Below, in pieces: positions 2,689 through 2,777 of a stretch of 6,406 nucleotides of DNA. This DNA comes from Octopus sinensis. Lineage: Eukaryota. The stretch lies in contig NW_021829304.1 in the NCBI RefSeq assembly GCF_006345805.1, positions 1 to 6,406 of the forward strand, read 5' to 3'. The notes beneath the pieces are model-generated. The model saw only the letters and a list, made by a program, of their open reading frames with translations, had not been told where the DNA came from and searched no databases. The translations under genes were made by a program, and so were the position numbers. How positions within the stretch are numbered: position 1 is the first letter of the stretch; each line of letters begins with the position of its first letter.

Positions 2689-2777
2689 TTTTATAGAAGG
2701 AGCTTCTACAGGACTAGAAGCTGATGATTTCATTTGAATGAAACAGTTCTAGTCCTGTAGAAGCTCCTTCTATAAAA
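2689..2777. repeat. Perfect 31-bp inverted repeat with a 27-nt, partly self-complementary spacer
   Basis: 2689-2719 ttttatagaaggagcttctacaggactagaa is the exact reverse complement of 2747-2777. In the spacer, ctg (2721-2723) can pair with cag (2744-2746) and tttcatt (2728-2734) with aatgaaa (2737-2743). Confidence 0.97.
2709..2757 (+). ncRNA. Putative minimal type I hammerhead ribozyme
   Basis: Core CUGAUGA at 2721-2727. Stem II is UUC/GAA (2729-2731/2736-2738) with loop AUUU and a U-U at its base. GAAA is at 2740-2743. Vestigial stem III is AC-A-GU (2743-2747), with cleavage triplet GUU (cut after 2748). Stem I is G2720-C2749 and A2719-U2750, then a 3-nt bulge, then a long helix from U2715-A2751 outward. 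Confidence 0.6.

What the first reader, a model, noticed from the sequence alone, without database searches (positions are those of the whole stretch)
2709..2757. Minimal hammerhead ribozyme core at the apex of a long hairpin
Seen: CUGAUGA, a short stem II, GAAA and a downstream UH occur in type I order within 30 nt, enclosed by a strong stem I. Stem III is only AC-A-GU, inside the quasi-palindrome AACAGUU. Established: Penelope-like retroelements carry minimal type I hammerheads with vestigial, palindromic stem III that are thought to cleave as dimers. Inference: this is a self-cleaving motif from a cephalopod Penelope-like family, cutting after GUU at 2748 (a UUC site at 2749 fits less well). 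The U-U at the base of stem II and the GUU triplet are non-optimal, so activity may be weak.
Basis: partly seen in the sequence, partly recalled or inferred. Interest (0 to 1): 0.8.

Follow-up and report, generated by a model that had tools for sequence, protein, structure and literature searches.

The report
Clipped hammerhead in Penelope-type insertion
The hairpin is the head-to-head junction of two clipped copies of a jumping-gene end found thousands of times in this genome; intact copies carry a complete hammerhead ribozyme motif at the likely start of their RNA, but this copy has lost one helix and is predicted not to cut.

Summary
The 31-bp 'stem I' is a DNA inverted repeat: two 5'-clipped copies of a non-coding Penelope-like repeat joined head to head in (TA)n, with a ~70-nt tail on one arm. 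The family has 4,923 exact core matches. Intact copies (4,351) fit a complete type I hammerhead: 6-bp stem I, U·U plus 3-bp stem II, 4-bp stem III. The predicted cut is after GUA (window 2759), not 2748. This copy starts at C3, lacks stem I's 5' strand, and buries the cut site (+31.6 kcal/mol), so it is likely inactive. Of 100 tail-anchored arms, 19 begin at the first base of stem I (4 read one base further by microhomology), 29 nt behind a TATA box; in junctions such arms often carry an extra G. One begins at the cut site. Templates were therefore likely capped, uncut RNAs. No cleavage or expression was shown and no autonomous partner was found. The scan noted similar 5' boundaries in shark- and fish-type genomes. 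Known kind, modest new detail.

The parts
2603..2616 (.). (TA)n target microsatellite, left
   Evidence: (TA)n or similar simple repeats flank nearly all of the 30 loci printed
2617..2719 (-). Left arm: inverted, 5'-clipped copy of the element end (family positions about +33 to +135, +1 being the first base of stem I); contains no hammerhead core
   Evidence: printed as +32 because of a one-base reference offset
2617..2685 (-). About 70-nt 'tail', present on this arm only
   Evidence: tail on exactly one arm in 82 of 84 short inverted junctions; 2,843 exact tail-motif matches
2689..2777 (.).
2720..2720 (+). Single extra G at the head-to-head junction; 4 of 30 similar loci have the same junction without it, through a 3-nt microhomology
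   Evidence: L001 against L002, L004, L005, L011
2721..2780 (+). Right arm: direct copy from C3 (+7) to about +66; the 6-nt 5' strand of stem I is missing
2721..2727 (+). Hammerhead core C3-A9 (CUGANGA)
   Evidence: only N7 varies recurrently
2728..2739 (+). U10.1·U11.1 plus 3-bp stem II and 4-nt loop II
   Evidence: stem II invariant in 95 of 95 arms, loop II variable
2740..2742 (+). Core G12-A14
2743..2758 (+). Stem III of the family fold (ACAG 2743-2746 / CUGU 2755-2758) with an 8-nt loop holding a 4-nt palindrome
2759..2759 (+). H17 (A of GUA): predicted scissile position in intact copies
   Evidence: invariant in 95 of 95 arms; cleavage not tested
2760..2765 (+). 3' strand of stem I, orphaned here (G2720 faces G2760)
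2756..2774 (+). Competing 8-bp hairpin of the family RNA that masks the cut site once +60 is transcribed (predicted)
2781..2805 (.). (TA)n target microsatellite, right

Best explanation
Window 2617-2780 is one insertion of a non-coding repeat with Penelope-like architecture: two 5'-clipped copies of the element end joined head to head in (TA)n, the right one holding a hammerhead that has lost its stem I 5' strand and is likely inactive. Shown: the architecture, the copy numbers, the three-helix fit of intact copies, a TATA box 29 nt before stem I, the pile-up of 5' ends at stem I's first base and the extra G there. Inferred mechanism: the repeat end is a TATA promoter that makes a capped RNA whose first 51 nt are the hammerhead. 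A Penelope-type RT/GIY-YIG protein supplied in trans nicks both strands of (TA)n and primes two cDNAs at two internal sites (about +66 and +135, hence the tail on one arm). Each cDNA runs to the cap or stops early, and the two are joined by microhomology or a few untemplated bases. Here they stopped at +33 and +7. In intact RNA the ribozyme would cut after GUA (+45), separating the cap or upstream body from the priming sites. A downstream hairpin competes with the active fold, so cutting is probably rare or protein- or dimer-assisted, and uncut RNA is what gets copied.
For: Junctions vary among near-identical copies at different loci. Tail on exactly one arm in 82 of 84. Core matches often come as divergent minus/plus pairs 0-6 kb apart. 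Intact +1..+51 folds into a three-way junction with stems I and III in its MFE; stem I p = 0.99, with the active register 2.0-3.4 kcal/mol above the ensemble for four natural variants (sense rows). The descriptor hits L074 once and 0 of 2,000 shuffles. All 5 recurrently variable sites in 95 arms fall in N7, loop II or loop III (13 free of 39 unanchored sites; P about 0.002, sites not independent). Contigs of four public runs show listed differences within +1..+51 only at N7 and loop II (6 rows not shown). Other families in the genome keep the same core and a U·U with different helices, including one attached to a 775-aa RT+GIY-YIG ORF (L232). 5' ends: 19 of 100 tail-anchored arms at +1/-1, 14 at +2..+5, 0 at +33..+37, 1 at +44..+48. 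TATA box 29 nt upstream in 34 of 35 arms scored. The untemplated base before +1 is G in 9 of 11, against 7 of 22 for other arms (Fisher p = 0.010). Window copy: active stems II+III cost +31.6 kcal/mol. Literature: an inverted clipped copy plus tail is the PLE hallmark (PMC8557442, PMC3846280). Two RT start sites define the tail, uncut RNA is the dominant template and the ribozyme is protein-assisted in an Anolis PLE (PMC11167929). An extra G marks copied caps in L1 (PMC11702581). U10.1-U11.1 occurs in natural hammerheads (PMC3088659, PMC7229834).
Against: No cleavage assay and no raw RNA reads. No compensatory base change inside the family: the stems are simply invariant, and so is most of the sequence downstream (2 recurrent sites in about 82). 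Sporadic changes hit the core as often as loop III (8 over 9 sites against 10 over 8). Rfam models do not score it. No autonomous element sharing this end was found among 55 GIY-YIG loci fetched; the one match, L237, lies tail to tail with the ORF, which I read as a nested insertion. The tail (about 70 nt) is longer than the published 30-40 nt. The cap-G count is small, and one intact-flank copy (L102) has a native G at -1. In 14 of 57 junctions the arms overlap on the palindrome at +1, so microhomology adds to the hotspot.
Confidence: 0.8

Rival explanations
1. One reading: a minimal hammerhead with a 2-bp stem III cutting after GUU at 2748, with the long hairpin as stem I, active as a dimer.
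For: The letters fit the minimal pattern. Minimal PLE hammerheads with short palindromic helix III exist (PMC4209133), and a 1-nt loop III was seen in another family here (L135).
Against: Intact copies have C facing C at 2.1/1.1 in this register. The hairpin arm is not part of the family sequence. This register costs +15.5 kcal/mol in the window. The alternative register gives 6-bp and 4-bp helices. No arm starts at +33..+37 (0 of 100).
Confidence: 0.04
2. The family motif is a fossil hammerhead kept as a protein-binding or promoter element; it no longer cuts in any copy.
For: Inserted copies span the cut site. Only 1 of 100 arms starts there. The active fold is 3-5 kcal/mol above the ensemble once +60 is present. 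HHR mutants did not impair insertion in vitro (PMC11167929).
Against: Subfamily differences avoid every catalytic and paired position, and families with different helices keep the same core. This fits selection on the ribozyme fold, though not on catalysis alone.
Confidence: 0.3
3. The +1 hotspot comes only from annealing of two cDNAs at the 4-6-nt palindrome at the start of stem I, not from a transcription start.
For: 14 of 57 short junctions on contig C1 are perfect palindromes centred there.
Against: Many +1 arms join without that overlap, and they carry an untemplated G in 9 of 11 cases. TATA spacing is fixed at 29 nt while the spacer sequence varies freely.
Confidence: 0.15
4. The hairpin is a MITE (DNA transposon) or a microRNA precursor.
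For: Perfect inverted repeat; weak Rfam miRNA matches far below gathering scores.
Against: The outer ends are unequal (tail on one arm). The centre differs between copies, arms range from tens of bases to kilobases, and solo and tandem arms exist.
Confidence: 0.03

Closest known systems
Type I hammerheads in pLTRs of Penelope-like elements (Cervera and De la Peña 2014, PMC4209133)
   Same: Type I order, conserved core, location at the element end, palindrome in loop III, pairs on opposite strands nearby
   Different: Metazoan PLE motifs there are minimal (little or no helix III, long helix II, G10.1-C11.1). This family has a 4-bp helix III, 3-bp helix II on a U·U and a 6-bp helix I. The window copy is truncated.
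EN+ PLE insertion structure: inverted 5'-truncated copy, tail, microsatellite targeting (PMC8557442, PMC3846280); Poseidon PAc mechanism (PMC11167929)
   Same: Head-to-head arms, tail on one arm, AT-rich target, uncut RNA copied, TATA in the terminal repeat
   Different: No ORF seen in the long copies examined; tail about 70 nt; 5' ends pile up at the first base of stem I with an extra G
Non-LTR retrozymes of animals (PMC7229834; bioRxiv 10.64898/2026.07.22.740005)
   Same: Non-coding, type I hammerhead, proposed PLE mobilisation; axolotl HHR_Amex2 also has U·U at the base of helix II
   Different: Retrozymes are head-to-tail tandem arrays of 170-400-nt units that give circular RNA. These copies are mostly dispersed inverted pairs, some with kilobase microsatellite-rich bodies.

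Membership tests
Type I hammerhead ribozyme (window copy) | Core CUGANGA, GAAA, UH in type I order | tested here: met
Type I hammerhead ribozyme (window copy) | Stem I directly flanking C3 and H17 | tested here: not met
   G2720 faces G2760 and the 5' strand is lost; the 2748 register has p = 0.0
Type I hammerhead ribozyme (window copy) | Active fold accessible | tested here: not met
   +31.6 kcal/mol, computed only
Type I hammerhead ribozyme (intact family copies) | Three helices in register around the core | tested here: met
   6 bp, U·U plus 3 bp, 4 bp; 4,351 copies with both stem I strands
Type I hammerhead ribozyme (intact family copies) | R10.1-Y11.1 pair | tested here: not met
   U·U in 94 of 95 arms; a published natural exception (PMC3088659, PMC7229834)
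Type I hammerhead ribozyme (intact family copies) | Core and stems conserved, loops free, stems covary | tested here: inconclusive
   Variation confined to free sites, no compensatory change inside the family; different helices only across families
Type I hammerhead ribozyme (intact family copies) | Rfam hammerhead model at gathering score | tested here: not met
Type I hammerhead ribozyme (intact family copies) | Site-specific self-cleavage | not testable with these tools
   needs an assay
Minimal PLE hammerhead (min-HHR) | Helix III absent or 1-2 bp | tested here: not met
   4-bp helix III
Penelope-like element | Inverted 5'-truncated copy next to a direct copy | tested here: met
Penelope-like element | Tail on one end only | tested here: met
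   82 of 84; about 70 nt rather than 30-40
Penelope-like element | RT plus GIY-YIG ORF in cis (autonomous member) | tested here: not met
   Only low-complexity or unrecognisable frames in the printed part of the 20 long copies (output cut; not scanned against Pfam)
Penelope-like element | Autonomous partner sharing the terminal sequence | tested here: inconclusive
   RT+GIY-YIG ORFs of 781 and 775 aa exist, but none of 55 loci fetched shares this end; 150 of 5,029 candidates were scored
Non-LTR retrozyme | Head-to-tail tandem units, each with a hammerhead | tested here: not met
   Mostly inverted pairs or solo arms; occasional short tandem only (L021, L071)
Non-LTR retrozyme | Circular RNA | not testable with these tools
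   only contigs available

The most novel reading that the evidence does not exclude
In this family the hammerhead is the first 51 nt of a capped, TATA-driven transcript and works as a self-decapping switch. It can cut off the 45-nt capped leader only until a downstream hairpin (+42..+60) forms or a partner refolds it, and only uncut RNA is retrotransposed. The genome would then hold thousands of cap-marked cDNA ends that map the element's start site and explain why PLE copies in several animals begin at the stem I edge.
Probability: 0.3. Interest if true: 0.65.

Novelty: new member of a known kind. Interest (0 to 1): 0.36.

Why it matters
The role of hammerheads in Penelope-like elements is still open (PMC8557442, PMC11167929). 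This family offers a compact 51-nt, three-helix test case with thousands of copies. It also gives a genomic read-out of the template: copies start at a TATA-spaced, G-marked position and almost never at the cut site, which agrees with the in vitro result that uncut RNA is copied. The window locus itself is an ordinary dead junction fragment. It also shows how an insertion palindrome can mimic a stem I and shift the apparent cleavage site.

Tried and rejected
Rfam scans of the window and of an intact copy: no hammerhead near its gathering score; miRNA hits are generic hairpins. A 3' splice-site explanation of the hotspot was considered; an acceptor would give starts at +3, not +1 with an extra G. 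Search for the autonomous partner: 55 GIY-YIG loci compared with the family end, none shares it. Expression: no RNA holder listed; all runs were contigs, and no start or end sites were reported, which is no evidence either way. The column table mixed both strands and was discarded (redone). The position labels are shifted by one, and ends beyond +20 read one too low; values given here are corrected. From the cap-G count I dropped L021 and L091 (templated duplications): 10 of 12 against 7 of 24 (p = 0.004) became 9 of 11 against 7 of 22 (p = 0.010). cannot see arms starting at +46 because of its anchor, so the cut-site test rests. A few apparently duplicated loci (L075, L076, L185, L212/L213) are counted as found. 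No tRNA in the window. The earlier-findings look-up by sequence returned nothing.

Full report
Observation. Its arms are a perfect 31-bp inverted repeat, 2689-2719/2747-2777. In that fold U2747 and U2748 are paired and CUG pairs with CAG at p about 0.99. Rfam gives only sub-threshold hits.

The hairpin is an insertion junction. Searching the own genome with 2615-2780 gave 677 candidates, of which 40 were scored and 30 loci fetched. These show a long left arm, a short right arm and mostly (TA)n flanks, but the centre differs from copy to copy. The core pattern occurs 4,923 times against 0 for the reversed control, often as divergent minus/plus pairs 0-6 kb apart. Longer copies continue upstream into a TATA-containing region and then a microsatellite-rich body with no recognisable ORF in the printed output. 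In 84 short inverted junctions the ~70-nt tail is on exactly one arm in 82. This matches the published PLE insertion structure (passages of PMC8557442; PMC3846280). In the window the left arm reaches family position +33, one extra G follows, and the right arm starts at C3 (+7).

The family hammerhead. In intact copies C3 is preceded by AGCUUC, which pairs with GAAGCU 39 nt later. This gives stem I of 6 bp, U·U plus 3 bp for stem II, stem III ACAG/CUGU with an 8-nt loop, and GUA as the triplet. The scissile position maps to window 2759. Both stem I strands are present in 4,351 copies, and core plus stem III in 5,402. The descriptor hit L074 once, the window never, and 0 of 2,000 shuffles. In 95 arms anchored on stem I, the only sites with a minor base in 3 or more arms are N7, three loop II bases and one loop III base. 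Sporadic changes do hit the core, as expected for dead copies. There is no compensatory change within the family. Contigs from four public runs under four organism codes show listed differences inside +1..+51 only at N7 and loop II, while the 20 nt upstream vary heavily. The loop III variant strengthens the predicted dimer duplex (-12.8 to -15.2 kcal/mol).

Related motifs in the same genome. GIY-YIG searches found PLE-type ORFs of 781 and 775 aa with RT and GIY-YIG domains (the second RT match is below Pfam's cut-off). Both carry a cysteine motif before the nuclease, as described for Neptune in PMC8557442; no tree was built. Their 3' ends carry hammerheads. The 775-aa family has U·U at the base of stem II, a 5-bp stem I and a palindromic helix III. 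A looser pattern (1,948 matches, 241 control) showed two more families with U·U, 3-bp stem III and different helices, one of them with the same inverted-arm and tail layout. U·U is thus a lineage trait. It is a known natural exception (passages of PMC3088659; PMC7229834). No fetched autonomous locus shares this family's end.

What the 5' ends say. I took the first 100 listed of 2,843 tail matches, all on contig C1 and chosen without reference to the core. Their 5' ends were: 28 beyond -140, 12 at -139..-2, 19 at -1/+1, 14 at +2..+5, 15 at +6..+32, 0 at +33..+37, 2 at +38..+43, 1 at +44..+48, 9 beyond +48. In 57 short junctions on C1 (a set partly selected on the core), 50 of 114 arm ends are at -1/+1. 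A TATA-like box starts 29 nt before +1 in 34 of 35 arms scored. Where untemplated bases precede a +1 arm, the adjacent one is G in 9 of 11, against 7 of 22 elsewhere (p = 0.010, two templated duplications removed). An extra G is the signature of a copied cap in L1 (passage of PMC11702581). I infer that +1 is a capped start and that templates were uncut. This agrees with the Anolis PLE, where uncut RNA is the dominant template, two RT start sites define the tail, both strands are nicked and extended, and the ribozyme needs the protein (PMC11167929, parts 1-2 of 4 read). Palindromic annealing at +1 also contributes (14 of 57 junctions).

Activity. For intact RNA ending at +51..+58 the three-way junction is the MFE, although in the window's subfamily stem II slips onto the core GAA (active register +3.4 kcal/mol; +2.0 to +2.5 in other variants). 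From +60 an 8-bp hairpin over the cut site takes over (+4.5 to +5.2). The window copy has no stem I in register, and its active stems cost +31.6 kcal/mol. The minus strand has no core. It is very likely inactive. Nothing here shows cleavage or expression.

Known versus new. Hammerheads in PLE ends are established (PMC4209133, parts 1-2 of 4 read; its figures and supplements were not seen and may list molluscan motifs). Rfam hammerhead hits were counted in the giant squid (passage of PMC6962438). An octopus repeat annotation lists Penelope families without mentioning ribozymes (passages of PMC13282606). Retrozymes as PLE derivatives: part 1 of 5 of bioRxiv 10.64898/2026.07.22.740005. Searches showed no paper describing this family or a cap-G at PLE hammerhead boundaries. 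These were listings of an open-access library only, and repeat databases could not be checked. Earlier notes of this scan report the same 5' boundary in other animals (seen after my reading was set; unchecked AI notes). Verdict: a new member of a known kind; the locus is a truncated copy; the start-site evidence is the only part of wider interest.

Noticed in passing
L229 3217-4200; L149, L125: Young RT+GIY-YIG family (781-aa ORF, many intact-length copies) with a U3-A8 hammerhead variant near its 3' end; a TATA box and splice-donor-like site lie upstream and an acceptor-like AG abuts the core, recalling the intron/hammerhead overlap reported for Drosophila Penelope.
   Followed up: partly
L232, L239, L243, L245, L250 versus L124, L251: In the 775-aa family several copies read CCGAAGA in place of CUGAAGA (U4 to C) while helices stay perfect.
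   Followed up: no
L257, L261, L276, L282: Second repeat family with a U·U hammerhead, inverted arms, (TA)n flanks and a ~70-nt one-sided tail that contains a telomere-repeat-like stretch; L257 is a long perfect palindrome.
   Followed up: partly
L269, L270: Third hammerhead family (6-bp stem I, U·U, palindromic helix III, GUC) with non-(TA) flanks.
   Followed up: no
G000 contig C1, e.g. L083, L158, L209: Many insertions are perfect palindromes of about 65 bp per arm; if read through they would give long dsRNA (possible editing or siRNA substrates; speculation).
   Followed up: no
window 5490-6066: Three tandem copies of a ~184-nt unit, also matched in many fetched loci; a separate repeat family.
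   Followed up: no
window 1205-1440, 1476-1890: Further dispersed repeats flanked by (TA)n/(CA)n that match many fetched loci.
   Followed up: no
window 3480-4280: About 800 nt of GAT/GAC trinucleotide repeat giving low-complexity open frames.
   Followed up: no
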